A stretch of 64,000 nt of DNA from contig CAZVLR010000002.1 of the NCBI GenBank assembly GCA_964628095.1, forward strand, positions 12,795 to 76,794, written 5' to 3'. This stretch comes from an uncultured Candidatus Saccharibacteria bacterium. GTDB lineage: Bacteria; Patescibacteriota; Minisyncoccia; Minisyncoccales; CAZVLR01. The notes under the pieces were generated by a model. It made no database searches. It had not been told where the DNA came from and saw only the letters and a list, made by a program, of their open reading frames with translations. This document shows, one piece after another, positions 3,394 to 40,580 of the stretch (position 1 is its first letter; every line of letters starts with the position of its first letter). A program made the translations under genes and the position numbers.

Positions 3394-3739
3394 TGGTGGA
3401 GGTGAAGGGATTCGAACCCTTGTGCAAAAATATTCTCCAAGACAACGCTACAAACTTAGCCCGATTTGGTATCAGTAGAAAGTATTAATCGGACCAAATC
3501 TTTCTACTTTTTGGTCAAGATTTTGATAGTCTTTTGACCGGAAAGAGCTACCTATCTCGATTGATATAACACCAGATTTTAATTATCGAGAATTGCTAAA
3601 ACCCGATGTGCTTTAAGCGTATGCTAAAGCAGGAGCTTGAAATAAGTTGGCACTTATATCAGTTTCCGAAGGTTTTACGAGCTTTCGGAGCTCGGTTTGA
3701 TTGTTTTGGGTCGGATTTTTGTCGATTCCTGAACACCCC
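3394..3739 (-). ncRNA. ssrA: tmRNA (SsrA)
   Basis: Minus-strand 5' end is GGGGUGUUCAGGAAUCGAC and 3' end is GGGUUCGAAUCCCUUCACCUCCACCA (tRNA-like acceptor/T arm with CCA). The internal tag frame GCC AAC UUA UUU CAA GCU CCU GCU UUA GCA UAC GCU UAA encodes ANLFQAPALAYA* (3651..3613). It lies directly downstream of smpB. Confidence 0.9.
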
Positions 3740-3768
3740 CTATTAATTATTATTAAGATCTTAAGATG

Positions 3769-6517: not shown

Positions 6518-9367
6518 ATGGATTTTGCAAAAACAGAAAAAGAAATCTTAAAGTTTTGGGCTGACAATAGAATCTTTGAAAAACTCCAGGCAAAGAATTG
6601 GGGCAAGAAACGCTGGTCTTTTTTAGACGGCCCGATTACCGCCAATAACCCCATGGGTGTGCACCACGCTTGGGGTCGGACTTACAAGGATTTGTTTCAG
6701 CGCTACAAGGCCATGCGGGGTTTTTACCAAAGGTTTCAGAATGGCTTTGACTGCCAGGGCTTATGGGTTGAGGTGGAGGTGGAAAAGGAGCTGGGCTTTA
6801 AAACGAAAAAAGACATTGAAGATTATGGCATTGAAAAGTTTGTGGAAAAATGCAAAGAAAGGGTTTTAAAGTATTCGAAAATTCAAACCGAGCAATCGAT
6901 CAGGCTGGGCCAGTGGATGAACTGGGATAATTCGTATTTTACCATGTCAGACGAGAATAATTACGCCATCTGGCATTTTTTAAAAATTTGCAAAGAAAAG
7001 GGCCTGCTTTACAAAGGCAAAGATGTAGTGCCTTGGTGCATTAGGTGTGGCACGGCTATTTCCCAGCACGAGATATTAACTGAAGAATACAAGGAAATAT
7101 CTCATAAGGCAATTTTTTTCAGATTGCCCTTGGCAAGCGAAAGCCAGACTTTTTTTCTTGCTTGGACTACCACGCCCTGGACTTTGCCCGCCAACGTTGC
7201 TCTGGCCGTAAATCCCGGGCTGAATTACGCCTATATTCAAAACGGAAAGGGTCAAACATATATATTGTTGGAAAACAAAGCCTTTTTAATCCCAGGGGGC
7301 AAGGTAGTTAAAACTTTAAAAGGATCACAATTGAAGGATTTGGAATATAAAGGACTGTTTGACGAGTTACCTTTGGCAAAAGATATTTTAGGTGATTATC
7401 GCCATAAAGTAATTACCTGGAAAGAAGTTTCTTTGGAAGACGGCACGGGCGTTGTACATATAGCTCCCGGTTGCGGGCAGGAAGACTTTAAACTGAGTAA
7501 AGAATTCAATCTGCCGGTTATTGATCCCGTGGACCAAGAGGGCAGATATAAAAAGAACCTTGGCTTTTTAGAGGGTAAATTAGTAACTCAGGTTCGAGAG
7601 GATATTTTTGACAGTCTTGAGAAAAAGGGTTTGGTTTTTAAGATTGAGGATTATTTACACCGTTATCCCACTTGTTGGCGCTGCAAATCGGAGCTGATTT
7701 TTAGATTAGTTAACGAATGGTACATTTCAATGGAGAAAATAAGGAAATCTTTGGTTAAGATCACCAAAAAAATACAATGGATACCGGATTTTGGTTTAGA
7801 AAGAGAGTTGGATTGGTTAAAAAATATGCAGGATTGGTTAATTTCCAAAAAAAGATATTGGGGTTTGGCCTTGCCCATTTTTGAATGTGCTTGTGGTAAT
7901 TTTGAAGTGATTGGCTCCAAAGAAGAATTGAAAGAAAGGGCAATTGAGGGCTGGCCCGATTTTGAAAATCATTCACCACACCGGCCTTGGGTGGATAAGG
8001 TAAAAATTAAATGCTCCAAATGCGGGCAATCCGTTGAAAGAATAAAAGACGTAGGCAATCCTTGGCTGGATGCGGGCATTGTACCTTTTTCAACCACGGG
8101 TTATTTTGAGGATAAAAAGGAGTGGAACAACTGGTTCCCGGCCGATTTTATCTGCGAATCTTTTCCCGGGCAGTTTAAAAACTGGTTTTATTCTTTGATC
8201 GTTATGAGCGCGGTTTTAGAAGGAGAAAATCCTACGAAAACTATTTTTGGCTACGCTTCCGTAAAAGATGAAAAAGGGGAAGAAATGCACAAATCCAAGG
8301 GGAATGCCATTTGGTTCGATGAAGCAGTTGAAAAGATCGGAGCCGAACCCATGAGATGGCTTTACGTGCGGCAGAACCCCGCTTATAATTTGAACTTTGG
8401 CTACAATGCGGCCCGGGACATCCAAAAGAAACTATTAACCCTTTGGAATAATTTCGTATTCTTTAAAACCTATTCTGATCAAAAAAGCGAAATTTCTTTA
8501 CCTAAAAAAATGGATAAAGCCAACGTGCTTGATCAGTGGATTATTTCCCGTTTACACGGCTTAATTGAAAAAGTAACCAAGGGCCTGGATGGTTATGACG
8601 CGGCTCAGGCAGCTTTAGCCATAGAGGATTTTTTTATCGAAGATCTTTCTTTGTGGTATATCAGGCGATCGCGCCGTCGCTTTCAGAAGCCAGATAATAT
8701 ATTAGAAAAAGAAACAGCTTTGGGCGTTCTTTATTTTACACTTTTTAACTTATTGAAAATCATTTCCCCGTTTTTGCCTTTTTTCTCAGAATCAATGTAT
8801 CAATCGATAAAAGACAAGGAGTTACCCGAATCGATTCATTTGTGCGATTGGCCAAAAATTGAGAAAGATTTAATAAATAAGAAACTGGAGGAAAAAATGA
8901 AAGCAGTTAGGGTTGTGGTAGCGGAAATTTTAGCACAAAGGGCAAAAGAAGGCATAAAAGTACGCCAGCCGCTTTCAAAGATTACCATAAAAGAAAAATT
9001 GGAAAATGAGTTTATTGAATTGATAAAAGAAGAGGTTAACGTAAAGGAAGTTTTATTCGGCAAGGAAATAAAATTAGACACTCAAATTACGCCCCAGCTT
9101 TTGCAAGAGGGCATTTTAAGGGAGGCAGTCAGGCATATTCAGATAATGAGAAAAGAATTGGGGCTACAGCCCAAAGACAAAATTTTGGTTAGGTACGAGA
9201 GCGGTGAGGAATTGAATAAGATATTCATCAATAACCGCGACTATTTAATTAAAGAATTAAAAACCGAAGATTTCTCTCAAAAAAAAGAAGAACTATCTTT
9301 TGACAAGATTTCAGAGCTTGAAATTAACAATAAGAAAGTTTGGCTAGCAATTAAGAGAAAGGGATAA
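6518..9367 (+). CDS. ileS: isoleucine--tRNA ligase
   Basis: Class I signature GVHHAWG, editing-domain motif WTTTPWTLPANVALAVNP (IleRS-type) and a KMSKS variant MHKSKGN. ValRS and LeuRS are identified separately elsewhere in the window. Confidence 0.9.
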   Translation: MDFAKTEKEILKFWADNRIFEKLQAKNWGKKRWSFLDGPITANNPMGVHHAWGRTYKDLFQRYKAMRGFYQRFQNGFDCQGLWVEVEVEKELGFKTKKDIEDYGIEKFVEKCKERVLKYSKIQTEQSIRLGQWMNWDNSYFTMSDENNYAIWHFLKICKEKGLLYKGKDVVPWCIRCGTAISQHEILTEEYKEISHKAIFFRLPLASESQTFFLAWTTTPWTLPANVALAVNPGLNYAYIQNGKGQTYILLENKAFLIPGGKVVKTLKGSQLKDLEYKGLFDELPLAKDILGDYRHKVITWKEVSLEDGTGVVHIAPGCGQEDFKLSKEFNLPVIDPVDQEGRYKKNLGFLEGKLVTQVREDIFDSLEKKGLVFKIEDYLHRYPTCWRCKSELIFRLVNEWYISMEKIRKSLVKITKKIQWIPDFGLERELDWLKNMQDWLISKKRYWGLALPIFECACGNFEVIGSKEELKERAIEGWPDFENHSPHRPWVDKVKIKCSKCGQSVERIKDVGNPWLDAGIVPFSTTGYFEDKKEWNNWFPADFICESFPGQFKNWFYSLIVMSAVLEGENPTKTIFGYASVKDEKGEEMHKSKGNAIWFDEAVEKIGAEPMRWLYVRQNPAYNLNFGYNAARDIQKKLLTLWNNFVFFKTYSDQKSEISLPKKMDKANVLDQWIISRLHGLIEKVTKGLDGYDAAQAALAIEDFFIEDLSLWYIRRSRRRFQKPDNILEKETALGVLYFTLFNLLKIISPFLPFFSESMYQSIKDKELPESIHLCDWPKIEKDLINKKLEEKMKAVRVVVAEILAQRAKEGIKVRQPLSKITIKEKLENEFIELIKEEVNVKEVLFGKEIKLDTQITPQLLQEGILREAVRHIQIMRKELGLQPKDKILVRYESGEELNKIFINNRDYLIKELKTEDFSQKKEELSFDKISELEINNKKVWLAIKRKG

Positions 9368-9454: not shown

Positions 9455-10366
9455 ATGTCCAAGGCTAAACCGGTTAAAACTAAATCTTTTTCAATTGAAG
9501 AAAAGGACCGTCTAACAAAAATTCACCAAGGCATTGTTAGGGGGCGTTGGTTTTGGATAATAATTTTAGGCCTTAGCAGCGTTTCTTTGGTTATTACCCG
9601 CAAGATGAGTGCTATTCCCCTTTTTTCCTCTTATCACCCCAAAGAAAATGTTGGTTTTTATTTAATCACTCTTTTTTTGGTTTTTTATAATTTTCTTTTC
9701 TGGCTTTATTTAAAGCAAGGTGAAAAATGCACTGAAAAAGGCTTGAACAATTTAAGATATTTGCAGGTCGGTTGCGACCTGGCCCTGGTTACGGCTTTGT
9801 ATAATTTAATCGGTGGCATTGATAACCCCACCCTTTTGCTTTACTTGGTACCTATTTTAGTGTCAATCATGCTTTTTAGTGCAAAAGGCGTGTTTATTGT
9901 TACCACTTTAAGTTTGCATTTAGCTGTGTTTATTACCTTAGCCGAACATTTTGGCCTAATCGTCCATAAGTTTCGCTATCTTATCCCAATAGGAATTTTC
10001 GGCAACCTACCCATCACGCTTTATTTTTTAACAACTTTTGCCCTTTCTCTTTACGGTGCCTCTATTTTTGCTAATTTTTTAGCCGATATTTTATCACAGA
10101 AAGAAAAAAAATTGAGGGAAAAAACATCTCAAATGGAAGAAGTTAATACGATTTTGGAAATTAAGGTTCAAGCCAGAACCAGGGCCATGCAGGATTTAAC
10201 AGACTCCTTGGAACAGCAGGTTAAAGTAAGAACGGAAGAACTAGAGGGGAAGATAAAAGAAGTGGAACGGTTTAATAAATTGGCCAGCGGGCGCGAAATG
10301 AAGCTTTTGGAATTGGAAAAAGAAATTAAAACATTAAAAGATGAGTTAAAAACCGCCATATCATAA
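9455..10366 (+). CDS. membrane protein: about 6 TM helices plus a C-terminal coiled coil (signalling-helix-like), no output domain
   Basis: Six hydrophobic segments, followed by LEIKVQARTRAM...VKVRTEELEGKIKEVERFNKLASGREMKLLELEKEIKTLK. Paralog of the next gene. Confidence 0.75.
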   Translation: MSKAKPVKTKSFSIEEKDRLTKIHQGIVRGRWFWIIILGLSSVSLVITRKMSAIPLFSSYHPKENVGFYLITLFLVFYNFLFWLYLKQGEKCTEKGLNNLRYLQVGCDLALVTALYNLIGGIDNPTLLLYLVPILVSIMLFSAKGVFIVTTLSLHLAVFITLAEHFGLIVHKFRYLIPIGIFGNLPITLYFLTTFALSLYGASIFANFLADILSQKEKKLREKTSQMEEVNTILEIKVQARTRAMQDLTDSLEQQVKVRTEELEGKIKEVERFNKLASGREMKLLELEKEIKTLKDELKTAIS

Positions 10367-10380
10367 GCATTTTTAATTTA

Positions 10381-11259
10381 ATGTCAGAAGAGCTACAAAA
10401 AAATAATCAGGAAGAAAAAATCAGGCTTTTGGCTATTCATAAGAATGTGTTTTGGGGCCGGCTTTTGTGGACGTTACTTTTTTGCGGCATCGGGCCTTCG
10501 GTGATGATAATTAAAAAACTTACTTCTACCCCGGCTTTTGTTCAGCAAAGAATGACCGGAAACTATTTTGCCCTGGCCTTTGTTTTATTGTACAGTTTTT
10601 CCTTTTGGCTTTATTTAAGAAGGGGCGAAAAATGCACCGAAAAGGGTTTGAATATTTTAAGATATTTCCAAGTCGGTTGTGATTTAGTTTTTTCGCTGTT
10701 TCTTTTTTACAACGTTGGAGGAATTGACAGCCCGGCCTTCTTTCTTTTTTTATTGCCCTTTTTTGTTGGGACCATATTTTTTAAATTAAAAGGAGTTTTA
10801 TTAATTACCACCCTAATACTTGTTTTTAGTTCGGGCATTGTTTTTTTGGAATATTACGGCATTCTTTTTCACCAGTCGCATTATTTGACAAATACGGGTA
10901 TTTTTATCCATTTACCCATTACCATTTATTTTTTATTCACCCAAGCCTTTGTTCTTTATGGTGCTGCTGTTTTTGCCGGCGTCTTGGCCAATGTTTTAGA
11001 CCGGCAAGAGAAAAAATTAAAGGAAAAGAATTTATCACTAGAAGAAGCAAAGTCTTCTTTGGAGGTAAAAGTTGTGGACCGGGAGAAATCGTTAAAAGAG
11101 CTGGCTATTTCCTTAGAAGATCAGGTTTTAGCCCGAGTTAAAGAACTGGAAAACAAAATGTTAGAATTGGAGAATTTTAACAAGTTAGTAGTCGAAAGGG
11201 AGTTAAAAATGATAGAATTAAAAAAGAAGATAAAAGACTTTAAAAGGCAATTAGAATAA
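10381..11259 (+). CDS. paralogous membrane plus coiled-coil protein, no output domain
   Basis: Shares LYL(K/R)xGEKCTEKGLNxLRY(L/F)QVGCDL (22 of 26 identical by eye) and the FNKLxxxRE(M/L)K(L/M)(L/I)ELxKxIK tail with the 9455 gene. Confidence 0.75.
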   Translation: MSEELQKNNQEEKIRLLAIHKNVFWGRLLWTLLFCGIGPSVMIIKKLTSTPAFVQQRMTGNYFALAFVLLYSFSFWLYLRRGEKCTEKGLNILRYFQVGCDLVFSLFLFYNVGGIDSPAFFLFLLPFFVGTIFFKLKGVLLITTLILVFSSGIVFLEYYGILFHQSHYLTNTGIFIHLPITIYFLFTQAFVLYGAAVFAGVLANVLDRQEKKLKEKNLSLEEAKSSLEVKVVDREKSLKELAISLEDQVLARVKELENKMLELENFNKLVVERELKMIELKKKIKDFKRQLE

Positions 11260-11260
11260 A

Positions 11261-11869
11261 ATGAGCGAAAACATTTCCTTAAAACAAGAAGCAGACAGGC
11301 TTTTAAAAATTCCCGGTAACGTTAAAGGGGTGGTTTTTCAAACACATTATAAATATATTTTGTATCGTACTGGCGAAGAGGGGGTAAAAACCGTTGAGGC
11401 TAAATTAGAAGAATTGGGCCATCCGTTGAAGTTCAAAGAAATTAAATCTTGGCTTTGGTATTCAGAGGGCCTCGATGTTTTAATATTTTTAATTTTAAAA
11501 GACATTTTTAATTGGGATGATTCCGATATTTTTGACATGGGAACTTCAGCGCCCAAATACTCTTTTATTGTCGGTACCCTTTTAAAAACTTTCATTTCAC
11601 CCAAGAAGTTTTTTGAAGAAACGCCAAAGTATTGGGAAAAGCATTATAGTTTTGGGCAGATGGAGGCCCTAGAAATAAACGAAGATCAAAAATATGCCAC
11701 AGTTCGGATTAAAGACTATAATTTTCATCCAATTAGCTGTATTTATTTTAAGGGTTATTTTACCCGAATCGGACAATTTATTATTAAAACCAATAATTTT
11801 CAGGTAGAAGAGAAAAAGTGCGTTCATCGGGGCGATACTTACCACGAATTTTTATTAACTTGGGAATAA
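11261..11869 (+). CDS. soluble hypothetical protein, possibly a ligand-binding sensor module (H-NOX/DUF2378-like by gross layout only)
   Basis: 202 aa with no TM segment, tightly coupled between the membrane paralogs (1-nt gap) and the histidine kinase (6-nt gap). The H-NOX YxSxR motif is absent. The family call is weak. Confidence 0.5.
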   Translation: MSENISLKQEADRLLKIPGNVKGVVFQTHYKYILYRTGEEGVKTVEAKLEELGHPLKFKEIKSWLWYSEGLDVLIFLILKDIFNWDDSDIFDMGTSAPKYSFIVGTLLKTFISPKKFFEETPKYWEKHYSFGQMEALEINEDQKYATVRIKDYNFHPISCIYFKGYFTRIGQFIIKTNNFQVEEKKCVHRGDTYHEFLLTWE

Positions 11870-11875
11870 ATAATT

Positions 11876-13534
11876 ATGCCAGAGGATATAAAATTAAAAG
11901 AAAAATATCAGGAATTGCAGGAATCTTTCGAAGATTTGCAGCTTTATTTTGAGCAATTCACCACTTTTTTGCCAATTGCCGTTTGTAGTATTACGCCCAT
12001 AGGAGTTATTATTAGTATTAATAAATTTTTTCAGGAATTAACCGATTATAATGAAATGGAAATTGTTGGTAGGCCAGTGGAAACGCTTTTTTTGGAAAAA
12101 GAACAAGGTAAAATGCTTACTCGGGAGGTAATTGACGGTGAAGTTGTTGAAAAAGAGTTGAATTTGATTAATAAAAAAGGCGAAAAGATTCCTGTAACGG
12201 TTTCTGCTTCTCTAAGAAAAGATAAAGAAGAAAACATTTTAGGTTATTTTTTAGCCATCATTGAAATTGTTAGGTTTAAAAAATTCCAAGAAGAGCTAGA
12301 AAAAAGGCTAAAGGAAAAAACTAAGGAATTAGAAGATCGGACCAAGGCATTAGAAAATTCTAGGGGCGGCCTGCTTAATATTTTAGAAGACATGGAGGAG
12401 TCTAAAAATAAAGAGGAGGAGGAAAAAAATAAAACCCTAGCTATTATTACTAATTTTGCCGACGGCCTTTTAGTTTTTGACGAACACAGTAAGCTATCTT
12501 TGATAAATTCGCAGGCCGAAAACTTTTTTAATGTTACAGCTAAAGAAACTTGCGAGCGATCAATTCCGGAGTTGATTAAATTTCCCAATTTATCGTTGTT
12601 GATCAATCTTTTAATCGATGTTTCTCAAAAAGAGGAGAATAAAGAAGACAAAAAAAACGATCAATCTAAATTTGAAATAAGGGAAATTTTTAGACGAGAA
12701 TTGTTGATAAAAGACGATCTGGTATTAGAGGTTTCCAGCATACCTCTTTTGAAAGATGATAAAAAAACTGGCGCGCTAGTGGTAATCCACGATATTACTA
12801 GGGAAAAAATGATTGAGGTAATGAAAACAGAATTTGTTTCTTTGGCGGCGCATCAGTTAAGAACCCCCTTGTCGGCAATTAAATGGACCTTAAAAATACT
12901 TTTAGATGGCGATTTGGGCGAATTGAATTCCGAGCAGCGTGATTTTATCGAAAAAACTTATAAATCCAACGAACGGATGATTGATTTAATAAATTCTTTA
13001 TTGGATGTGGCCAGAATTGAAGAAGGGCGTTATCTTTATAAGCCAGTTTTAACCGAAATAGAGCCCATTATTCAGTTTGTGGTTAATTCCTACAAGGACG
13101 AAGTAGCTAATAAAAAAATTAACTTTGAATATTTAAAACCAAAGGAAAAAATGCCCAAAGTTTTGGTAGATGTGGAAAAAATCCGTTTGGTTATTCAGAA
13201 CTTTATTGAAAATGCCATTAATTATACGCCTGCGGGTGGTCAGGTGACAATTTCTTTAAAGCATGATAAGAAAGAAATAGAATTAATAATAAAAGATAGC
13301 GGCGTGGGCATACCCAAAGATCAGCAAGCCAGGGTTTTTACCAAGTTTTTTAGGGCCGCCAATGTAATGCGTTTGGAGACCACCGGAACAGGCTTGGGAC
13401 TTTTTATCTCAAAAAACATTGTTGAGGCCCATCAGGGGCGAATATGGTTTGAATCGGAGGAAAAGAAAGGTACCACTTTCCACTTTGCCCTACCTATTAA
13501 AACTGAATTCGACGAGTTTATCACCGGCTTTTAA
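11876..13534 (+). CDS. PAS-domain sensor histidine kinase (soluble)
   Basis: H-box SLAAHQLRTPLSAIKW, N-box ENAINYTPAGG, G1 DSGVGIP, G2 GTGLGLFIS. N-terminal PAS-like region and the coiled-coil linker KEKTKELEDRTKALENSRGGLLNILED. Confidence 0.9.
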   Translation: MPEDIKLKEKYQELQESFEDLQLYFEQFTTFLPIAVCSITPIGVIISINKFFQELTDYNEMEIVGRPVETLFLEKEQGKMLTREVIDGEVVEKELNLINKKGEKIPVTVSASLRKDKEENILGYFLAIIEIVRFKKFQEELEKRLKEKTKELEDRTKALENSRGGLLNILEDMEESKNKEEEEKNKTLAIITNFADGLLVFDEHSKLSLINSQAENFFNVTAKETCERSIPELIKFPNLSLLINLLIDVSQKEENKEDKKNDQSKFEIREIFRRELLIKDDLVLEVSSIPLLKDDKKTGALVVIHDITREKMIEVMKTEFVSLAAHQLRTPLSAIKWTLKILLDGDLGELNSEQRDFIEKTYKSNERMIDLINSLLDVARIEEGRYLYKPVLTEIEPIIQFVVNSYKDEVANKKINFEYLKPKEKMPKVLVDVEKIRLVIQNFIENAINYTPAGGQVTISLKHDKKEIELIIKDSGVGIPKDQQARVFTKFFRAANVMRLETTGTGLGLFISKNIVEAHQGRIWFESEEKKGTTFHFALPIKTEFDEFITGF

Positions 13535-13574: not shown

Positions 13575-13946
13575 ATGGCCAAAAAAATTTTACTTATCGA
13601 AGACGAAGAAATTTTATTAAATTTGCTTGATAAAAAACTGCAGGAAGCCGGTTACGATGTAACCGTTGCTCGGGATGGCCAAGAGGGCCTAGAAACAATG
13701 AAAAGTTCCCGACCCGATCTTATTTTATTGGACATTGTAATGCCCAAAATGGGCGGCTTTGAAGTAATGGAAGAAATGAACAAAGATGAACAACTTAAGA
13801 AAATTCCAGTTGTTATTGTTTCCAACTCCGGTCAGCCAGTAGAGATTGATCGAGCCAAAGCATTGGGCGCTAAAGATTGGCTGATTAAAACTGAATTTGA
13901 TCCACAGGAAGTAATTGAAAAAGTAATAAAACAAATAGGAAAATAA
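13575..13946 (+). CDS. single-domain response regulator (receiver only)
   Basis: KILLIEDEE, phospho-acceptor context LILLDIVMP, and VIVSNS...K. 123 aa with no output domain. Confidence 0.9.
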   Translation: MAKKILLIEDEEILLNLLDKKLQEAGYDVTVARDGQEGLETMKSSRPDLILLDIVMPKMGGFEVMEEMNKDEQLKKIPVVIVSNSGQPVEIDRAKALGAKDWLIKTEFDPQEVIEKVIKQIGK

Positions 13947-13974: not shown

Positions 13975-14343
13975 ATGGCAAAAAAAATCTTAATTATCGA
14001 AGACGATAAATTTTTAAGAGAGCTTATCGCCAAGAAGCTTACTAAGGAAATGTATGATACGGTTGAGGCGGTGGACGGCGAAGAGGGCATTAAAACTGTA
14101 AAAGAGGAAAAGCCTGATTTGGTGCTTTTGGATTTAATTTTGCCAGGCGCCGATGGTTTTGAGGTTTTGGGTAAAATGAAAGAAGATCCGGCGTTATCCC
14201 AAATCCCAGTGATTATTCTTTCCAATCTTGGACAAAAAGAAGACATTGAAAAAGGCTTGAAGTTAGGAGCAGTTGATTATATGATCAAGGCCCATTTTAC
14301 TCCGCAGGAAATTGTCGATAAAATTAGGACGATTTTAAAATAA
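13975..14343 (+). CDS. single-domain response regulator (receiver only)
   Basis: KILIIEDDK, LVLLDLILP, VIILSNLG...K. 122 aa with no output domain. Confidence 0.9.
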   Translation: MAKKILIIEDDKFLRELIAKKLTKEMYDTVEAVDGEEGIKTVKEEKPDLVLLDLILPGADGFEVLGKMKEDPALSQIPVIILSNLGQKEDIEKGLKLGAVDYMIKAHFTPQEIVDKIRTILK

Positions 14344-14423: not shown

Positions 14424-15986
14424 ATGGCTTTGGATAGCTTGTCAGAACAATATTATTTAAAAATTGGGAAAGCTTCAGATTTGAAGATTTTTAAAGAAAG
14501 GCTAATTTACCGTCTTTTGGAAATTTTACCTGGGTTTTTAAGTTGGTTGACGCTTTTTTTAATTTTATTTTTTTCCTGGAAAGAACCGGTTTGGGTGTCT
14601 GTTTTTGTCATCATGTTTGTTATTTACTGGCTTTTTCGTACCATTTATCTTTCTTTTCACCTTTGGTCTGGCTACAAGCGCATGATTATTCACGAGAAGG
14701 AAAACTGGATTCAGAGATTAAAAGATTTTAAAGCTCAAGACTGGCGGGGCATTTATCATTTGGTGGTACTGCCTTTTTATTACGAGCCCTTGGATATTAT
14801 TAGGGAGAGCCTTAAAGCTTTAAGTAATTCTGACTATCCAAAAGACAGAATGATAGTGGTTTTGGCCGGGGAGGAGCGGGCGGGAGAAGGTGGTAAGATG
14901 GTAGCTAGAATCCTTGAGAGTGAATTCAAAGATGTTTTTTTTAAATTCTTGGTAACTTGGCACCCGGTTAATTTAAAAGGCGAGATTATCGGGAAAGGAG
15001 CTAATGAAAGCTGGGCCACCAGGCGGGTTAAAGAATTGATCATTGATCAACTTAATATTGATTACAAAAACATTATAGTTTCTTCTTTAGATGCCGACAC
15101 GGTTGTTTTTTCCGGGTATTTGAGTTGTTTGACGTATCATTATTTAACGGCAAAAAAACCAGATCGAACATCTTTTCAGCCCATTCCTCTTTTTATTAAT
15201 AATATTTGGCAGGCGCCTTTTCTTTCAAGAATTTTCGCTTTTTCTTCTACCTTCTGGCACATTATGACTCAAGAAAGGCCGGAGAAAATGATTACCTTTT
15301 CTTCGCATTCGATGAGCTTTAAGGCTTTAGTCGACGTTGATTTCAGGCAAGTTAATGTGGTATCGGACGATTCGCGGATTTTCTGGCAGTGCTTTTTAAG
15401 GTACGACGGCGATTATCAGGTGCTGCCTCTTTATTACCCCATTTCTATGGATGCCAACGTTTCAGTTAATTTAAAACAAACCATCATTAACCTTTATAAG
15501 CAGCAGCGAAGGTGGGCATATGGCGTGGCCGATATTCCCTATTTTCTTTTCGGCTTTTTAAAAAATAAAAAGATTCCCCTTAATAAGAAATTTTCTTTGA
15601 GCATGGAGCTGATTGAAGGACATTGGTCTTGGGCTACGGCCTCGATGATGATTTTTCTTTTGGGCTGGATGCCGATTATTTTGGGTGGACCGTCTTTTTC
15701 ACAAAGCTTACTATCCTTTAGTGTGCCCAAAATTACTAGTCAGATTTTAACTATTGGAATGATCGGCTTGGTTGTTTCGGCTTATTTCAGCCTGATTTTA
15801 CTGCCGCCCAAGCCGCCAAAATATGGAAGATTCAAATATGTTTTTTTTGCCGTTGGCTGGCTATTAGTGCCGGTTATTATGGTTTTTTTCACCTCCATAC
15901 CTGCCTTTGAAGCCCAAACCAGATTAATGGTGGGTAAATATTTGAGTTTTTGGCCAACAGAAAAGATAAGGAAAAAGAAATATTAA
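14424..15986 (+). CDS. membrane-embedded family-2 glycosyltransferase (processive synthase-like)
   Basis: N- and C-terminal TM segments flank a GT-A domain with SSLDADT and the QQRRW (QxxRW) motif. Confidence 0.75.
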   Translation: MALDSLSEQYYLKIGKASDLKIFKERLIYRLLEILPGFLSWLTLFLILFFSWKEPVWVSVFVIMFVIYWLFRTIYLSFHLWSGYKRMIIHEKENWIQRLKDFKAQDWRGIYHLVVLPFYYEPLDIIRESLKALSNSDYPKDRMIVVLAGEERAGEGGKMVARILESEFKDVFFKFLVTWHPVNLKGEIIGKGANESWATRRVKELIIDQLNIDYKNIIVSSLDADTVVFSGYLSCLTYHYLTAKKPDRTSFQPIPLFINNIWQAPFLSRIFAFSSTFWHIMTQERPEKMITFSSHSMSFKALVDVDFRQVNVVSDDSRIFWQCFLRYDGDYQVLPLYYPISMDANVSVNLKQTIINLYKQQRRWAYGVADIPYFLFGFLKNKKIPLNKKFSLSMELIEGHWSWATASMMIFLLGWMPIILGGPSFSQSLLSFSVPKITSQILTIGMIGLVVSAYFSLILLPPKPPKYGRFKYVFFAVGWLLVPVIMVFFTSIPAFEAQTRLMVGKYLSFWPTEKIRKKKY

Positions 15987-18074
15987 TTATTCCAAATGGA
16001 TTCTTTCTCCAAAATTCTTCAAGCCCTCTTTTAAAGAGGGGTGTTTTTTAAAACTAGGATCTGATTTTATCATTTCTTTAGCGGCTTCTTGGGTTTTTTC
16101 CACTAATAAAACATCAGTTAAAGAAGCCATGGTTAGGTCGGGAATGCCCCACTGTCTAATGCCATCAAGCGAGCCCGGGCCGCGAATTGCTAAATCTTTT
16201 TCAGCCAATTTGAAGCCATCTTCGGAGGATACCACAGCCTTCAATCTTTGGCTGGTTTTTGAAACCGGTGAATCGGTAAAAAGTAGGCAATAAGATTGAT
16301 GCTTTGATCTTCCTACCCGGCCCCGGAATTGGTGCAGTTGAGCCAGGCCAAATCTTTCAGCGTCTTCGATCATCATGACGGTGGCGTTAGGTATGTCAAC
16401 TCCTACTTCCACTACCGAGGTGGATACGAGAATATTGATTTCTCCCCTTTTAAAATTATTCATAACAGCTTCTTTTTCGGAAGACTTCATTTTTCCGTGA
16501 AGCATGGCAATTTTTAAGTCAGGAAAAACAACCTCTGAAAGTTTTTGGTATTCTTCCTTTACCGCTTTTACTTCGGCCCAAGAAGTAAGCCGGGCGCTTG
16601 CTTCAATGCGCGGACAGATGACAAAAATCTGATAGCCCAATTTCACCTGTTCTTTTATAAATTGATAAGCCATGGTTCTTTTTTCTGGGCCAACGATTTG
16701 GGTGAATATTTTTTTTCTACCCTGAGGTAGTTCGTTAATAATCGATAAATCCAGGTCGCCAAAAATAGTTAGAGTTAGGGTGCGGGGGATGGGGGTGGCC
16801 GTCATTGATAATAAGTGGGGAATGAATTTTTTCTGCTGGCAAAGGTGAGCCCGTTGTTGAACGCCAAAACGGTGTTGTTCATCCAGAATTACCAGGGCCA
16901 AATTATCGAATTTTATTTCTTTTTGAATTAAGGCATGAGTGCCAATGAGAATGTCCAACTCCCCGCTTTTTATTTTCTCTAACAGCTTCTTTCTGGTGCT
17001 GATTACAATTTCTTTTAGATCTTTTGAAAACAGGCGGTTATCTTTTCCGGTAACCAGGCCAATACTTACGTTAAAATCTTTTAATAATTCAAAAACCGTT
17101 TTAAAATGCTGTTTGGCCAGAATTTCGGTTGGCGCCATAAAGGCTGTTTGGTAGCCGGTTTTTACCGTATTTAAAGCAGCCATTGTGGCTACTACAGTTT
17201 TACCTGATCCCACATCTCCCTCGAGCAGCCTGTTCATGGGTCGCGGTTTTTCCAAATCTTTTAAAATCTGCCAGCCGGTTTTTTTCTGAGCATTGGTTAG
17301 TGGCCAAGGTAGACGTTTTACAAAATCTTTGATTAACTCCAGCTGAATGGGTAGAGCAATTGCCTTTTGGGCTTTAATTTTTTGCCTTTCCTTTTGTACA
17401 AAGAGCGAGATAAAAAACAGTTCTTCAAAGGAAAAGCGATCTTCCGCTTTTTTTGCCAGACCTTTGGAATCGGGAAAATGCACCTGCCAAAGCGCCTGGC
17501 TTAGGGGAATTAAGGAGAATTTTTTTAAAAATTCTGGTGGTAGCGGATCGGTTATACTGTTTTTTAAATTGGTTAAAATCGGCTTTATAATAAACCTAAG
17601 CCAGCGAGAAGATAGTCCGGCGGTTTCTGGGTACATTGGTACAATGCGGCCGGTGTGGGTTAAGTCGGCCGAAAGCTTTTCGTAAATGGGGTTGGAAAAA
17701 TAAAAATCCTTTTCTTTTTTGATTAGTTTTCCGGCCAGGCAAATGCTGTCGCCCACTTTTAAGGTCTTGGTTAAATAGGGTTGGTTAAACCAGATTATTT
17801 TTAAGATTCCGGATTTATCCTGTATTATCCCTTGGGTGAGAAACATTCTTTTTTTCCAAGTTCTGATGTTTTTAATTTCAGTTATTGCTCCTTGTATGCA
17901 TGCGGCTTCGTTAAGCTGTAACCGGGAAATAGGAACAATATTAGAAAAGTCCTCATAGCGGTGGGGAAAGTGGTAAAGCAGATCCCGGACGTTTTTAATG
18001 CCCAGCCTTTTCAACTTTTTTTGGTAAGCCGGGCCGACCCGAGAAAGTTGTTCAACCGGGGTTGAAAGCTCCAT
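15987..18074 (-). CDS. recG: ATP-dependent DNA helicase RecG
   Basis: Walker A GDVGSGKT, DEQHRFG, the N-terminal wedge region VGPAYQKKLKRLGI..DLLYHFPHRYED, and helicase motif VI QLHQFRGRVGR. Confidence 0.95.
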   Translation of the reverse strand: MELSTPVEQLSRVGPAYQKKLKRLGIKNVRDLLYHFPHRYEDFSNIVPISRLQLNEAACIQGAITEIKNIRTWKKRMFLTQGIIQDKSGILKIIWFNQPYLTKTLKVGDSICLAGKLIKKEKDFYFSNPIYEKLSADLTHTGRIVPMYPETAGLSSRWLRFIIKPILTNLKNSITDPLPPEFLKKFSLIPLSQALWQVHFPDSKGLAKKAEDRFSFEELFFISLFVQKERQKIKAQKAIALPIQLELIKDFVKRLPWPLTNAQKKTGWQILKDLEKPRPMNRLLEGDVGSGKTVVATMAALNTVKTGYQTAFMAPTEILAKQHFKTVFELLKDFNVSIGLVTGKDNRLFSKDLKEIVISTRKKLLEKIKSGELDILIGTHALIQKEIKFDNLALVILDEQHRFGVQQRAHLCQQKKFIPHLLSMTATPIPRTLTLTIFGDLDLSIINELPQGRKKIFTQIVGPEKRTMAYQFIKEQVKLGYQIFVICPRIEASARLTSWAEVKAVKEEYQKLSEVVFPDLKIAMLHGKMKSSEKEAVMNNFKRGEINILVSTSVVEVGVDIPNATVMMIEDAERFGLAQLHQFRGRVGRSKHQSYCLLFTDSPVSKTSQRLKAVVSSEDGFKLAEKDLAIRGPGSLDGIRQWGIPDLTMASLTDVLLVEKTQEAAKEMIKSDPSFKKHPSLKEGLKNFGERIHLE

Positions 18075-18075
18075 G

Positions 18076-18148
18076 TGCCCTCGGCAGGAATCGAACCTGC
18101 AGTCTCAAGGTCCGCAACCTTGCATTTTATCCATTAAACTACGAGGGC
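18076..18148 (-). tRNA. tRNA-Arg (anticodon GCG)
   Basis: Acceptor GCCCTCG/CGAGGGC, anticodon stem CAAGG/CCTTG, loop TTGCGGA, T arm GCAGG-TTCGATT-CCTGC, discriminator A. CCA not encoded. 73 nt. Confidence 0.85.
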
Positions 18149-18159
18149 TGGTATTGTTA

Positions 18160-18188
18160 ATTCTAAAATAAAATTAAGCTTAATTCAA
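18160..18188 (-). promoter_or_regulatory. sigma70-like promoter for tRNA-Arg(GCG)/recG
   Basis: Minus strand reads TTGAAT (18188-18183), 17 nt, TAGAAT (18165-18160). The tRNA 5' end lies 11 nt downstream. Confidence 0.5.
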
Positions 18189-18189
18189 G

Positions 18190-18218
18190 TTGACTTTAAT
18201 CTATTTTATAGATAAAAT
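18190..18218 (+). promoter_or_regulatory. sigma70-like promoter for tRNA-Ser/tRNA-Ser/infB unit
   Basis: TTGACT (18190-18195), 17 nt, TAAAAT (18213-18218). The tRNA starts at 18232. It sits back-to-back with the minus-strand promoter. Confidence 0.5.
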
Positions 18219-18231
18219 ATATTTATCAAAA

Positions 18232-18322
18232 GGAGGAGTGCGGCGAATGGTAAGCCAGCAGTTTGCTAAACTGTACCCGTCTAAAAAGCGGGTTGTGGGT
18301 TCGACTCCCACCTCCTCCGCCA
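18232..18322 (+). tRNA. tRNA-Ser (anticodon GCT)
   Basis: Acceptor GGAGGAG/CTCCTCC, anticodon stem GCAGT/ACTGT with loop TTGCTAA, long variable arm, T arm GTGGG-TTCGACT-CCCAC, discriminator G. CCA encoded. Confidence 0.9.
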
Positions 18323-18344
18323 GCCGCTAATTTATTAAATAAAT

Positions 18345-18432
18345 GGCGGGGTCGGATAACGGCTATTCCACCGGTCTTGAAAACCGGAGCTCCTTCGGGG
18401 GCTTGTGAGTTCGAATCTCACCCCCGCCGCCA
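18345..18432 (+). tRNA. tRNA-Ser (anticodon TGA)
   Basis: Acceptor GGCGGGG/CCCCGCC, anticodon stem CCGGT/ACCGG with loop CTTGAAA, long variable arm (GCTCCTTCGGGGGC), T arm GTGAG-TTCGAAT-CTCAC. CCA encoded. Confidence 0.9.
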
Positions 18433-20770: not shown

Positions 20771-20842
20771 GGCCAGGTAGCCAAGCAGCAAGGCAGCGCT
20801 CTGCAAAAGCGCTATACGTGGGTGCAATTCCCGCCCTGGCCT
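20771..20842 (+). tRNA. tRNA-Cys (anticodon GCA), non-canonical T-loop
   Basis: Acceptor GGCCAGG/CCTGGCC, anticodon stem GCGCT/AGCGC with loop CTGCAAA, discriminator T (typical of Cys). T arm GTGGG-TGCAATT-CCCGC. D-loop AAGCAGCAA lacks GG. Confidence 0.8.
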
Positions 20843-20852
20843 CGGATAATTT

Positions 20853-20936
20853 GCCCGGGTGGTGGAATTGGTATACACGAGAGACTTAAAATCTCTTGAG
20901 TGCAAACTCTTGTGGGTTCGAGTCCCACCCCGGGCA
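20853..20936 (+). tRNA. tRNA-Leu (anticodon TAA)
   Basis: Acceptor GCCCGGG/CCCGGGC, anticodon stem AGAGA/TCTCT with loop CTTAAAA, long variable arm, T arm GTGGG-TTCGAGT-CCCAC. Confidence 0.9.
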
Positions 20937-20939
20937 TAT

Positions 20940-21011
20940 GGCGACTATAGTGTAGCAGTAACACTGGAGTTTGTGGCACTCCCATCACGGGTGCAAGTCC
21001 CGTTAGTCGCC
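20940..21011 (+). tRNA. tRNA-His (anticodon GTG) with encoded G-1, non-canonical T-loop
   Basis: G-1 (20940) lies opposite C73. Acceptor GCGACTA/TAGTCGC, anticodon stem GGAGT/ACTCC with loop TTGTGGC, T arm ACGGG-TGCAAGT-CCCGT. D-loop AGCAGTA lacks GG. Confidence 0.8.
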
Positions 21012-22155: not shown

Positions 22156-22232
22156 GCCCTCGTAGCTCAACTGGATAGAGCAGCTCCGTCCTAAGGAGAA
22201 GGTTAGGGGTTCAACTCCTCTCGAGGGCACCA
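22156..22232 (+). tRNA. tRNA-Arg (anticodon CCT)
   Basis: Acceptor GCCCTCG/CGAGGGC, D arm GCTC-AACTGGATA-GAGC, anticodon loop GTCCTAA, T arm AGGGG-TTCAACT-CCTCT. CCA encoded. Confidence 0.9.
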
Positions 22233-24600: not shown

Positions 24601-24672
24601 AGCGGGTGAAGGGAATTGAACCCTCTTCTCATCCTTGGCAAGGATGTATAATAGCCGGTATACGACACCCGC
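24601..24672 (-). tRNA. tRNA-Gly (anticodon GCC)
   Basis: Acceptor GCGGGTG/CACCCGC, anticodon stem CATCC/GGATG with loop TTGCCAA, T arm GAGGG-TTCAATT-CCCTT, discriminator T. Confidence 0.9.
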
Positions 24673-24686
24673 TTACTTTAAATATG

Positions 24687-24760
24687 TGCCGCGGGCCAGA
24701 CTTGCACTGGCGACCTCTTCTTTTTCAGAGAAGCGCATCTACTACCTGAGCTACCGCGGC
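24687..24760 (-). tRNA. tRNA-Phe (anticodon GAA), non-canonical T-loop and irregular D-stem
   Basis: Acceptor GCCGCGG/CCGCGGC, anticodon stem CTTCT/AGAAG with loop CTGAAAA, T arm GCCAG-TGCAAGT-CTGGC. The D region GCTCAGGTAGTAGATGC pairs only if one T is bulged. Confidence 0.75.
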
Positions 24761-24770
24761 TGGGTTTTAT

Positions 24771-24842
24771 TGGGCGGTGAAGGATTTGAACCTACGGCCT
24801 TCTCGGTGTAAACGAGACGCTCTGCCGCTGAGCTAACCGCCC
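24771..24842 (-). tRNA. tRNA-Val (anticodon TAC)
   Basis: Acceptor GGGCGGT/ACCGCCC, D arm GCTC-AGCGGCA-GAGC, anticodon stem TCTCG/CGAGA with loop TTTACAC, T arm GTAGG-TTCAAAT-CCTTC. Confidence 0.9.
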
Positions 24843-24843
24843 A

Positions 24844-24929
24844 TGGTGCGGACGGTGGGAGTCGAACCCACATGCCATTTCTGGCACAGAGCCTCAGTCT
24901 GTTGCGTATACCGGTTCCGCCACGTCCGC
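24844..24929 (-). tRNA. tRNA-Leu (anticodon GAG)
   Basis: Acceptor GCGGACG/CGTCCGC, anticodon stem ACAGA/TCTGT with loop CTGAGGC, long variable arm, T arm GTGGG-TTCGACT-CCCAC. CCA encoded. The 5' end touches the rplS stop codon. Confidence 0.9.
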
Positions 24930-26036: not shown

Positions 26037-26110
26037 TGGGCGGTATAGGACTTGAACCTATAACCTTTCGCACGTCAAGCGAACGCTCTAGCCAATTGAG
26101 CTAACCGCCC
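26037..26110 (-). tRNA. tRNA-Val (anticodon GAC)
   Basis: Acceptor GGGCGGT/ACCGCCC, anticodon stem TTCGC/GCGAA with loop TTGACGT, T arm ATAGG-TTCAAGT-CCTAT, discriminator A at 26037. CCA not encoded. Confidence 0.9.
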
Positions 26111-26117
26111 CCTCTGA

Positions 26118-26190
26118 TGCGCCTGGATGGGATCGAACCATCGACCCCCACTTTATAAGAGTGGTGCTCTAACCACTGAGCTACAGGCGC
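26118..26190 (-). tRNA. tRNA-Ile (anticodon TAT)
   Basis: Acceptor GCGCCTG/CAGGCGC, D arm GCTC-AGTGGTTA-GAGC, anticodon stem CCACT/AGTGG with loop CTTATAA (34-36 = TAT), T arm GATGG-TTCGATC-CCATC. Confidence 0.8.
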
Positions 26191-35547: not shown

Positions 35548-35629
35548 GCCGAGGTGGCGAAATTGGCAAACGCGCTGGACTTAGGATCCAGTGGAGCAAT
35601 CTTTGTGGGTTCGAATCCCACCCTCGGCA
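35548..35629 (+). tRNA. tRNA-Leu (anticodon TAG)
   Basis: Acceptor GCCGAGG/CCTCGGC, anticodon stem CTGGA/TCCAG with loop CTTAGGA, long variable arm, T arm GTGGG-TTCGAAT-CCCAC. Confidence 0.9.
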
Positions 35630-40505: not shown

Positions 40506-40580
40506 GGCCCATTCGTCTATCGGCTAGGACATGGCCCTTTCAAGGCTAAAAGACGGGTTCGACTCCCGTATGGGCCGCCA
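40506..40580 (+). tRNA. tRNA-Glu (anticodon TTC)
   Basis: Acceptor GGCCCAT/ATGGGCC, D arm GTCT-ATCGGCTA-GGAC, anticodon loop CTTTCAA, T arm ACGGG-TTCGACT-CCCGT. CCA encoded. Confidence 0.9.

What the first reader, a model, noticed from the sequence alone, without database searches (positions are those of the whole stretch)
9455..11259. Tandem paralogous six-TM proteins ending in signalling-helix-like coiled coils but lacking any output domain
Both proteins have about six TM helices and a strongly conserved cytoplasmic loop, GEKCTEKGLNxLRY(L/F)QVGCDL. A roughly 90-aa heptad-rich tail follows.

The tail contains motifs I associate with the linkers that join membrane sensors to PAS or HisKA modules in long sensor kinases: (A/V)RTxE(L) and FNKLxxxRE(L/M)K(M/L)(I/L)ELKKEI. 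Here the proteins stop after the linker.

The next kinase gene (11876) is soluble and carries the matching downstream part of such linkers (KTKELEDRTKALENSRGGLLNILED). This looks like a sensor kinase split into separate membrane-input and cytoplasmic-kinase polypeptides, with the input module duplicated. The parts might re-associate through the coiled coils.
Basis: inference. Interest (0 to 1): 0.55.

Follow-up and report, generated by a model that had tools for sequence, protein, structure and literature searches.

The report
Kinase-less membrane sensors with docking tail
Two neighbouring genes encode six-helix membrane sensors that have no enzyme domain and end in a conserved coiled-coil tail; they belong to a large, apparently undescribed class of sensor-only proteins that nearly always sit just upstream of a histidine kinase carrying a matching helix motif, which suggests a plug-and-socket way of wiring sensors to kinases.

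Summary
Genes 9455-10366 and 10381-11259 encode paralogues (45% identity). Each has six TM helices and a ~90-residue tail that continues TM6 as one helix.

The TM domain is a distant PilS/RegB-type sensor domain. One relative, P0066, is a single protein whose N-terminus matches paralogue 1 and whose C-terminus matches the window's kinase.

The tail is more than a cut-off linker. It is a signalling helix (ERT signature) plus a conserved cap, ELEKFxKLxVGRELKMxELKKEI. It is terminal in 146 of 147 tail-bearing hits and has no Pfam model. It follows many input types (HAMP, Cache, 7TM, PAS, GAF, REC) in candidate-phyla bacteria (CPR), Geobacter, Nitrospirae, a betaproteobacterium and archaea.

Of 129 tail genes, 83 have a kinase downstream, often with overlapping stop and start codons. 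45 of 60 such kinases carry ALLNILED at the register where the tail has its cap. The window's kinase has GLLNILED. In the reverse test, 26 of 33 motif-bearing kinases had a tail gene upstream.

The 202-aa gene in between is a V4R-type sensor protein.

Best reading: a multi-input two-component system whose sensors act on a soluble kinase in trans. Physical contact is inferred, not shown.

The parts
9455..10366 (+). Paralogue 1 (303 aa): PilS/RegB-like six-TM sensor domain (aa 1-214) plus C-terminal tail (aa 215-303)
   Evidence: ORF. AF2 model with pLDDT 91.6 and six TM helices. Pfam 6TM_PilS E = 0.0038; NCBIfam RegB/PrrB TM region E = 4.6e-5.
9719..9781 (+). Cytoplasmic TM2-TM3 loop and start of TM3, GEKCTEKGLNNLRYLQVGCDL (aa 89-109), with clade-specific Cys92 and Cys107
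   Evidence: Invariant in the four close relatives. 85% identical between the paralogues.
9812..9829 (+). GGIDNP motif in the short outside loop between TM3 and TM4 (aa 120-125); resembles the RegB GGXXNPF quinone site
   Evidence: RegB motif and its position from PMC3000548.
10097..10363 (+). Tail of paralogue 1: two signalling-helix units (ART, VRT) and the cap ...VERFNKLASGREMKLLELEKEI...
   Evidence: Continuous helix 185-302. Matches the tail profile in the family.
10381..11259 (+). Paralogue 2 (292 aa): same six-TM domain (aa 1-206; GGIDSP) plus tail (aa 207-292) with cap ...LENFNKLVVERELKMIELKKKI...
11261..11869 (+). 202-aa soluble V4R-type (small-molecule-binding) protein, a recurrent partner gene between tail genes and the kinase in CPR loci
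   Evidence: The window copy has no Pfam hit, but 16 of 27 family members hit V4R PF02830 (best 1e-6).
11876..13534 (+). Soluble histidine kinase (552 aa): PAS - signalling helix/GLLNILED - PAS - HisKA - HATPase
   Evidence: Pfam. No TM segment. Residues 183-544 are 45% identical to the fused 6TM kinase P0066.
12368..12391 (+). GLLNILED (aa 165-172): the 'socket' motif A-L-x-N-[IML]-[LMV]-[ED]-D typical of kinases that follow tail genes
13575..13946 (+). Single-domain response regulator 1 (123 aa)
   Evidence: Pfam Response_reg E = 8.7e-25.
13975..14343 (+). Single-domain response regulator 2 (122 aa)
   Evidence: Pfam Response_reg E = 1.1e-25.

Best explanation
The two genes encode kinase-less membrane sensors. 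Each has a PilS/RegB-type six-TM input domain whose last TM helix runs on into a dimeric coiled coil. That coiled coil consists of signalling-helix (ERT) units and ends in a conserved cap, ELEKFxKLxVGRELKMxELKKEI.

The two sensors, the V4R-type soluble sensor protein encoded next to them, a soluble PAS kinase and two single-domain response regulators together form one operon-encoded, multi-input two-component system.

A signal sensed in or at the membrane changes the conformation of the tail. The tail then acts in trans on the soluble kinase. The most likely contact is the cap docking onto the kinase's (A/G)LLNILED helix, which sits at the same register after a homologous signalling helix and leads into the PAS-DHp-CA core. 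Kinase or phosphatase output towards the two receivers is set in this way.

Shown:
- the anatomy of the proteins;
- homology of the TM domain to kinase sensor domains;
- the existence of fused relatives;
- the strictly terminal, conserved tail on many input types;
- the two-way genomic association between tail genes and motif-bearing kinases;
- frequent overlap of stop and start codons.

Inferred:
- physical binding, the cap-to-motif contact, and the sign of regulation;
- the ligand (a membrane or periplasm-facing cue, since the conserved GGxxNP and LEYxGIxPH motifs face outward).
For: Anatomy
- Six TM helices and one continuous TM6-tail helix.
- TM domain: 20 of 84 family members hit Pfam 6TM_PilS (best 1.9e-8). 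The window protein also gives a weak RegB/PrrB TM match.

Fused relatives
- 6TM-PAS-HisKA-HATPase proteins match the TM part of the profile at E = 1e-20 to 1e-24.
- P0066 equals paralogue 1's TM domain plus the window kinase's PAS2-DHp-CA.
- Fused sensor-signalling helix-NxLED-PAS-kinase proteins also exist.

The tail as a module
- 732 representative clusters at E < 1e-10.
- C-terminal in 146 of 147 tail-bearing hits.
- R280, E281, M284, L287 and K288 are at least 90% conserved among 84 full-length members.
- It follows HAMP, dCache, HisKA_7TM, 5TMR-LYT, 4HB_MCP, PAS, GAF, PocR, periplasmic binding domains and REC. No output domain and no Pfam model were found.

Gene context
- 83 of 129 tail genes have a kinase downstream on the same strand within five genes; 34 are directly adjacent.
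- 19 of those 34 pairs overlap, and 10 overlap by exactly 4 nt.

Motif association
- 45 of 60 downstream kinases carry A-L-x-N-x-x-[ED]-D, against 4 of 17 other kinases in the same loci.
- Some kinases start with the motif or repeat it four times.
- In the reverse scan, 26 of 33 motif kinases with at least 3 kb of upstream sequence have a tail gene upstream. Among 57 loci where the motif lay in a non-kinase ORF, the 7 with a tail gene appeared from their sequence context to be kinase fragments cut by a contig end; the ~50 unrelated proteins, mostly glutaredoxin-like, had none.
- Tail and kinase share the signalling helix in register and diverge exactly at cap versus motif.

V4R partner gene
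-.
Against: - No binding evidence of any kind.
- The hhalign match between the tail and the kinase linker is modest (probability 41%).
- The genomic samples are dominated by CPR lineages that share synteny, so the counts are not phylogenetically independent. The pattern does recur, however, in Geobacter, Nitrospirae, Ramlibacter and archaea.
- About a quarter of the associated kinases lack the motif, and about a fifth of motif kinases show no tail gene within 6 kb.
- The window's own caps deviate from consensus. Paralogue 1 has L and E where M and K are near-invariant. Paralogue 2 has E in place of G.
- The window's kinase has its own PAS1 and signalling helix, so it does not strictly need an external sensor.
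Confidence: 0.6

Rival explanations
1. Decoy or dominant-negative partners. The tail proteins pair through their signalling helices with full-length membrane kinases that have the same sensor type. This produces half-dead heterodimers, so they tune or silence a kinase rather than deliver a signal to a soluble one.
For: In L027, L030 and L031 a multi-TM tail protein is encoded directly upstream of a 6TM-NxLED-PAS kinase. Fused 6TM kinases exist in related organisms. Truncated receptors acting as inhibitors are a known theme (general knowledge).
Against: In most loci, including this window and L001, the adjacent kinase has no TM domain. The input domains of tail proteins often differ from those of the neighbouring kinase. 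A decoy would not need a near-invariant cap.
Confidence: 0.15
2. The cap binds something other than the kinase. Candidates are the single-domain response regulators encoded after the kinase (scaffold, sink or feedback) or another conserved cellular target. On this view the kinase link is indirect.
For: The cap is almost the same from CPR to archaea, which fits a very conserved target such as a receiver domain. 32 of 43 CPR loci encode stand-alone receivers whose targets are unknown. REC-tail proteins exist.
Against: The specific co-occurrence with the ALLNILED motif in kinases is not explained by this view. There is no similarity between the tail and the receiver-binding DHp helix. Receivers accompany nearly all kinases, so their presence is not informative.
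Confidence: 0.12
3. The proteins have nothing to do with two-component signalling. They are membrane-anchored coiled-coil proteins with a structural or other role, and their position next to kinases is inherited synteny.
For: No catalytic or known output domain is present. The fold search finds no informative match. Much of the context data comes from related CPR genomes.
Against: Every N-terminal domain found on the tail is a signalling input domain. The adjacency recurs in unrelated phyla, with different upstream genes and overlapping stop and start codons. The TM domain is homologous to kinase sensor domains.
Confidence: 0.05
4. They are decaying remnants of a broken kinase gene.
For: They look like a kinase cut off after its linker.
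Against: - Both paralogues are intact, and orthologues diverged to about 50% identity keep the same ends.
- Hundreds of clusters share a near-invariant cap.
- The same protein is found on 15 contigs.
Confidence: 0.02

Closest known systems
PilS and RegB/PrrB/ActS-type sensor histidine kinases (six-TM input domain; Pfam 6TM_PilS PF25323)
   Same: - Six TM helices with both termini inside.
- A GGxxNP-like motif in the short outside loop between TM3 and TM4. In RegB this loop is the quinone site (PMC3000548).
- Weak but consistent profile matches.
- Relatives with this domain fused to PAS-HisKA-HATPase.
   Different: - No DHp or ATPase domain in the same polypeptide.
- The window proteins score below Pfam and NCBIfam cut-offs.
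- The Phe of GGXXNPF is missing (T or A instead).
- The ligand is unknown. Quinone sensing is doubtful in a CPR organism (general knowledge; not tested here).
Signalling helix (S-helix) of Anantharaman, Balaji and Aravind 2006 (PMC1592074)
   Same: A heptad helix with an ERT-type signature (family consensus ART and ERT; Arg at a core 'd' position) directly after a TM, HAMP or PAS input module.
   Different: The S-helix is described as lying almost always between two signalling domains. Here it is followed only by a ~35-residue conserved cap and the stop codon.
Stand-alone sensors that control a kinase in trans, such as H-NOX with its partner kinase, or accessory membrane proteins of kinases (general knowledge)
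   Same: A sensor and a kinase on separate polypeptides encoded side by side. The V4R protein in this operon fits this pattern as well.
   Different: Those partners are globular or unrelated membrane proteins, each with its own interface. Here many different input domains share one common C-terminal coiled-coil module, and the kinases share one matching motif.
Split histidine kinases such as CheA3/CheA4 and HisKA-only/HATPase-only pairs (PMC3591291)
   Same: The functions of one kinase are distributed over two proteins that must assemble.
   Different: In those cases the break is between the phospho-accepting and ATP-binding parts. Here the kinase core is intact and the break is between the input module with its signalling helix and the rest.

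Membership tests
Pfam 6TM_PilS (PF25323) | Profile match at or above the gathering score (27 bits) | tested here: not met
   17.4 bits (E = 0.0038) for paralogue 1 and 13.0 bits (E = 0.081) for paralogue 2. However, 20 of 84 aligned family members match at E <= 0.01, best 1.9e-8. This indicates distant homology, not curated membership.
Pfam 6TM_PilS (PF25323) | Six TM helices forming the N-terminal input module of a signalling protein | tested here: met
   Hydropathy, the AF2 model, and fused kinase relatives.
RegB/PrrB/ActS redox-sensing kinase | GGXXNPF motif in the periplasmic loop between TM3 and TM4 | tested here: inconclusive
   GGIDNPT (paralogue 1) and GGIDSPA (paralogue 2) sit at the right place, but the Phe, and in paralogue 2 the Asn, are replaced.
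RegB/PrrB/ActS redox-sensing kinase | HisKA and HATPase domains with a redox-active Cys; NCBIfam equivalog score of at least 350 | tested here: not met
   No kinase domains are present. The NF033792 score is 22.4 bits, over the TM region only.
Sensor histidine kinase | DHp helix with a phospho-accepting His (H-box) and a catalytic ATPase domain | tested here: not met
   No HisKA or HATPase hit. The profile comparison of the tail with DHp regions gives nothing.
Signalling helix (S-helix) | A helix of about 40 residues in heptads with a central ERT signature | tested here: met
   Paralogue 1 has QARTRAM and KVRTEEL. The family consensus is ARTxEL and ERTKEL, with Arg at heptad position d. Paralogue 2 is degenerate (DRE, ARV).
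Signalling helix (S-helix) | Located between two signalling domains | tested here: not met
   The helix is followed only by the cap and the stop codon. The tail is terminal in 146 of 147 tail-bearing hits.
Methyl-accepting chemotaxis protein | MCPsignal hairpin domain | tested here: not met
   No such Pfam hit in the window proteins or in 148 relatives. The tail is a single straight helix.
Sensor-only proteins with S-helix plus GRELKM cap (class defined here) | C-terminal module ...ERTxELxxKxxELEKFxKLxVGRELKMxELKKEI... ending 17-42 residues after the Gly | tested here: met
   Both window proteins align over the whole module. They deviate at single cap positions: SGREMKLLELE in paralogue 1 and VERELKMIELK in paralogue 2.
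Sensor-only proteins with S-helix plus GRELKM cap (class defined here) | Encoded upstream of a histidine kinase that carries the A-L-x-N-x-x-[ED]-D helix | tested here: met
   The kinase at 11876-13534 has GLLNILED at residues 165-172. The same gene order is found in L001.
V4R domain proteins (for the 202-aa neighbour) | Match to Pfam V4R PF02830 | tested here: inconclusive
   The window copy gives no hit even at E <= 10, but 16 of 27 aligned homologues do (best 1e-6).

The most novel reading that the evidence does not exclude
The S-helix-plus-cap tail is a universal, portable 'plug'. It lets any input module (TM sensors, Cache, PAS/GAF arrays, even phosphorylated receiver domains) connect in trans to kinases that carry the ALLNILED 'socket' helix.

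This would be a previously unrecognised modular wiring system for two-component signalling in bacteria and archaea. Several sensors could converge on one kinase, as in the tandem paralogues here, the arrays of up to five tail genes in Geobacter-type loci, and the four socket repeats in a Ramlibacter kinase.
Probability: 0.35. Interest if true: 0.85.

Novelty: new variant of a known kind. Interest (0 to 1): 0.68.

Why it matters
Textbook two-component systems join sensor and kinase in one protein. Known trans-acting sensors each use their own private interface.

A shared terminal module on hundreds of sensor-only protein clusters, paired with a shared motif on their neighbouring kinases, would have several consequences:

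- It would explain what many 'PAS domain protein', 'HAMP protein' or 'response regulator without output' annotations actually do.
- It would show how small genomes such as those of CPR bacteria feed several inputs into one kinase.
- It would offer a natural, short and portable interface for rewiring sensors to kinases in synthetic biology.
- It would extend the role of the signalling helix from an intramolecular switch to an intermolecular one.

Tried and rejected
- Pseudo-H-box idea. VGRELKM looked like a degenerate VSHELRTPL, i.e. a tail that is a truncated DHp helix or a pseudo-substrate. The spacing is off by one residue, and hhalign of the tail against 67 DHp regions found nothing. Rejected.
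- Word-index homology searches found only 2-6 proteins. The family became visible only with the exhaustive profile search.
- The first AF2 run, with four sequences, was poor (pLDDT 60.7). The run with 84 sequences was good.
- Foldseek against the PDB gave no significant match (best E = 0.25; ImcA at probability 0.80, E = 0.36). The afdb50 library was unavailable.
- The tail profile against PDB sequences gave only weak generic coiled-coil hits.
- The V4R family profile against the PDB gave nothing meaningful.
- Literature searches for the cap and socket motifs as text, and for 'no output domain' sensors, found no description of this class.
- A tblastn search of plasmid records with a Geobacter-type tail found no cap-bearing gene.
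It was replaced by a degenerate DNA pattern.
- A simple g-e' charge check of in-register parallel pairing of cap and socket, done by eye, gave mixed results. It is not used as evidence.
Full report
**1. What is there**

The window carries a run of same-strand genes with short gaps:
- isoleucyl-tRNA synthetase (6518-9367);
- paralogue 1 (9455-10366, 303 aa);
- paralogue 2 (10381-11259, 292 aa);
- a 202-aa gene (11261-11869);
- a 552-aa histidine kinase (11876-13534);
- two single-domain response regulators (13575-13946 and 13975-14343);
- a 520-aa multi-TM protein (14424-15986).

The gaps are 14, 1, 6, 40, 28 and 80 nt, so the genes very likely form one operon. The sequence comes from groundwater metagenomes, and the same protein is seen on 15 contigs. 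Its relatives are candidate-phyla-radiation (CPR, Patescibacteria) bacteria.

**2.

The paralogues are 45% identical (E = 3e-83). Hydropathy gives six TM segments with a basic N-terminus, so the N-terminus is inside.

With an 84-sequence alignment, AlphaFold2 gives a confident model (pLDDT 91.6). It has helices 13-51, 62-87, 94-119, 125-140 and 143-165, and one unbroken helix 185-302, which is TM6 running straight into the tail.

Identity between the paralogues varies by region:

| Region | Identity |
|---|---|
| Cytoplasmic TM2-TM3 loop | 85% |
| GGIDxP loop (outside) | 71% |
| TM6 | 62% |
| First outside loop | 15% |

The cytoplasmic loop, with its two cysteines, is conserved only in the four closest sequences.

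**3. The TM domain is a kinase-type sensor domain**

The only recurrent family match is Pfam 6TM_PilS. The window proteins score below threshold (E = 0.0038 and 0.081), but 20 of 84 aligned relatives match, best 1.9e-8.

NCBIfam gives a weak local match to the TM region of RegB/PrrB/ActS kinases (E = 4.6e-5). GGIDNPT and GGIDSPA sit in the short outside loop between TM3 and TM4. In RegB this loop holds GGXXNPF, the quinone-binding site (PMC3000548).

The exhaustive profile search found proteins of 453-588 aa whose N-terminal ~215 residues match the TM part at E = 1e-20 to 1e-24. Their remainder is PAS-HisKA-HATPase, or HisKA-HATPase in P0115.

P0066 is a clean Rosetta stone. Its residues 8-231 align with paralogue 1 (E = 5e-21). 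Its residues 222-569 align with residues 183-544 of the window's own kinase at 45% identity (E = 7e-101).

**4. The tail is a module, not a stump**

The same search returned 4281 representative proteins at E < 1e-3 and 732 at E < 1e-10.

Among the best 150 hits and the proteins found earlier, 147 carry the tail. In 146 of them it ends within 25 residues of the C-terminus. About 90 of the proteins are 270-325 aa six-TM-plus-tail proteins like those in the window.

The others carry the tail after HAMP (14), dCache_1 (7), HisKA_7TM (4), 5TMR-LYT, 4HB_MCP or PAS.

In Geobacter, Desulfuromonadaceae, Nitrospirae, Bacteroidetes, Verrucomicrobiota, Ramlibacter albus, Methanoperedenaceae and other archaea, the tail follows PAS/GAF/PocR arrays, periplasmic binding domains, HAMP, or a receiver domain. 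It is always at the very end, and no output domain is present.

No Pfam model covers the tail. No solved structure resembles it by sequence.

Its anatomy is:
- one or two signalling-helix units with the ERT signature described by Anantharaman et al. (PMC1592074);
- then the cap, ELE(K/R)FxKLxVGRELKMxELKKEIxxL.

In the 84-sequence alignment, which was not selected by motif, E281 is invariant and R280, M284, L287 and K288 are at least 90% conserved.

If the heptad register is continued from the ERT Arg, the invariant Arg falls on a core 'd' position. Conserved hydrophobic residues then lie on several faces of the helix, which suggests packing with more than one other helix (inference).

The S-helix paper states that the helix lies almost always between two signalling domains. 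A terminal position is therefore unusual.

**5. Gene context**

In 79 genome loci found through the cap motif, I called ORFs and marked kinases, receivers, tails and the 202-aa family with local profiles.

The typical CPR order is: one to three sensor-tail genes, zero to three copies of the 202-aa gene, a soluble kinase of 400-540 aa, then one or two single-domain receivers.

- 83 of 129 tail genes have a kinase downstream on the same strand within five genes; 34 are immediately adjacent.
- Of those 34 pairs, 19 overlap, and 10 overlap by the classic 4 nt.
- The same tail-then-kinase order occurs in Ramlibacter (L076), archaea (L047, L062, L078, L079), Nitrospirae (L066, L082), Geobacter relatives (L059, L068, L072) and others.
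- The close relative L001 has both paralogues directly followed by the kinase, without the 202-aa gene.

**6. A matching motif in the kinases**

45 of 60 kinases lying downstream of tail genes contain A-L-x-N-[IML]-[LMV]-[ED]-D (typically ALLNILED). Only 4 of 17 other kinases in the same loci do. The window's kinase has GLLNILED at residues 165-172.

The motif follows a signalling helix, a PAS domain, or the N-terminus itself. Kinases in L076, L034, L080 and L028 begin with it. The Ramlibacter kinase has four tandem copies and L034 has two.

When aligned on the shared ...ERTxELxxKxxELE... segment, the Asn of the kinase motif and the Gly of the cap fall in the same column. The two sequences diverge only from that ELE onward. 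Profile-profile comparison aligns just the shared part (E = 2.8e-4, probability 41%).

Fused proteins of the form sensor-HAMP-S-helix-ALLNILED-(PAS)-DHp-CA also exist, including multi-TM versions.

For the reverse test I scanned metagenomes for the DNA pattern of A-L-x-N-[IM]-L-E-D-x-E:
- 61 matches lie in kinases.
- Of the 33 kinases with at least 3 kb of upstream sequence, 26 have a tail gene upstream on the same strand.
- In 57 further loci the motif lies in an ORF not recognised as a kinase. Seven of these loci have a tail gene, and their motif ORFs appeared from sequence context to be kinase fragments cut by a contig end. The remaining ~50 are unrelated proteins, mostly glutaredoxin-like, and none has a tail gene nearby.

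**7. The gene in between**

The 202-aa protein has no Pfam hit itself. It has 26 homologues in the fetched loci, all next to tail genes and kinases, and 16 of the 27 family members match the V4R domain (best 1e-6).

V4R is regarded as a small-molecule-binding domain (general knowledge). The arrangement recalls H-NOX proteins encoded beside their kinases.

**8. Mechanism**

The best-supported reading is a multi-input two-component system. The two six-TM sensors and the V4R protein are separate input subunits for one soluble PAS kinase, and the tail is the transmitter.

That the cap docks on the ALLNILED helix is my inference. It rests on co-occurrence, on the shared register and on the multi-face hydrophobic pattern.

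The rival readings cannot be fully excluded:
- decoy heterodimers with membrane kinases;
- binding to the receivers or to some other target.

Unrelated function or gene decay is contradicted by the data listed above.

**9. Known or new**

The parts are known kinds: a PilS/RegB-like TM domain, the signalling helix, a PAS kinase, and trans-acting sensors.

I did not find the combination described. That combination is:
- a conserved terminal S-helix-plus-cap module shared by many sensor-only proteins in bacteria and archaea;
- the linked ALLNILED kinases.

There is no family model, no paper holding either motif as text, and no description among papers on signalling proteins lacking an output domain. 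'Split kinases' in the literature are split between DHp and ATPase (PMC3591291).

My literature access is partial, so prior description elsewhere is possible. I rate this as a new variant of a known kind.

**10. Caveats**

- All evidence is computational.
- My ORF calls and local profiles are crude.
- The locus samples were selected through the motifs themselves and are rich in related CPR genomes, so the proportions are descriptive and not independent counts.
- The cap consensus was built from regex-selected sequences. The unbiased conservation figures are those.
- The window's two caps each deviate from the consensus at one or two near-invariant positions. This may reflect specialisation, for example heterodimerisation of the paralogues, or weaker function.

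Noticed in passing
window 11261-11869 (+): A 202-aa protein with no Pfam hit of its own belongs to a V4R-type family (16 of 27 members hit PF02830). In CPR loci, one to three copies recur between sensor-tail genes and the kinase. It is absent from the otherwise syntenic relative L001.
   Followed up: partly
L076:8153-9427 (Ramlibacter albus); also L034:4690-5823: The kinase that follows a PAS-tail protein starts with four tandem ~21-residue repeats of the AVLNILED motif (two repeats in L034), as if it offered several docking sites.
   Followed up: partly
window 9728-9730 and 9773-9775 (Cys92 and Cys107 of paralogue 1; equivalent positions in paralogue 2): Two cysteines, one in the cytoplasmic TM2-TM3 loop (GEKC) and one in TM3 (VGCDL), are invariant in the four closest sequences but absent from the wider family. 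This could be a clade-specific redox or metal site.
   Followed up: no
L039:7587-8276, L046:7527-8378, L072, L051, L055: Receiver-domain proteins of about 200-350 aa have the same tail as their only other part. They lie next to kinases in Desulfuromonadaceae, Methanoperedenaceae and Geobacteraceae, so they may link one kinase to another.
   Followed up: partly
L039, L061 (Geobacter sp. OR-1), L059, L066, L046, L051: Arrays of three to five consecutive tail-bearing sensor genes, each with different PAS/GAF/periplasmic input domains.
   Followed up: partly
L008:9476-10048, L009:6749-7333, L026:4467-5012, L048:9463-10005: Small proteins (~180-195 aa, zero or one hydrophobic segment) end in the same tail, and their N-terminal part was not identified. 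They are interleaved with V4R genes in CPR loci.
   Followed up: no
Paralogue 1 has SGREMKLLELE (L for the near-invariant M, E for K). Paralogue 2 has VERELKMIELK (E for G). The orthologues in L001 show the same split, which hints at distinct pairing preferences.
   Followed up: no
window 14424-15986 (+): A 520-aa protein with about five hydrophobic segments has no clear family here. Its orthologue in L001 has a weak Glyco_trans_2_3 hit. It follows the receivers in both genomes and is followed by a terminator-like hairpin at 16024-16040, so it may be a regulated target.
   Followed up: no
window 3394-3740 (-); tRNAs at 18076-18429, 20771-21011, 22156-22229, 24601-24929, 26037-26190, 35548-35629, 40506-40577: A tmRNA gene and 15 tRNA genes lie mostly in clusters. 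The clusters at 24.6-26.2 kb coincide with the local rise in G+C to about 0.46.
   Followed up: no
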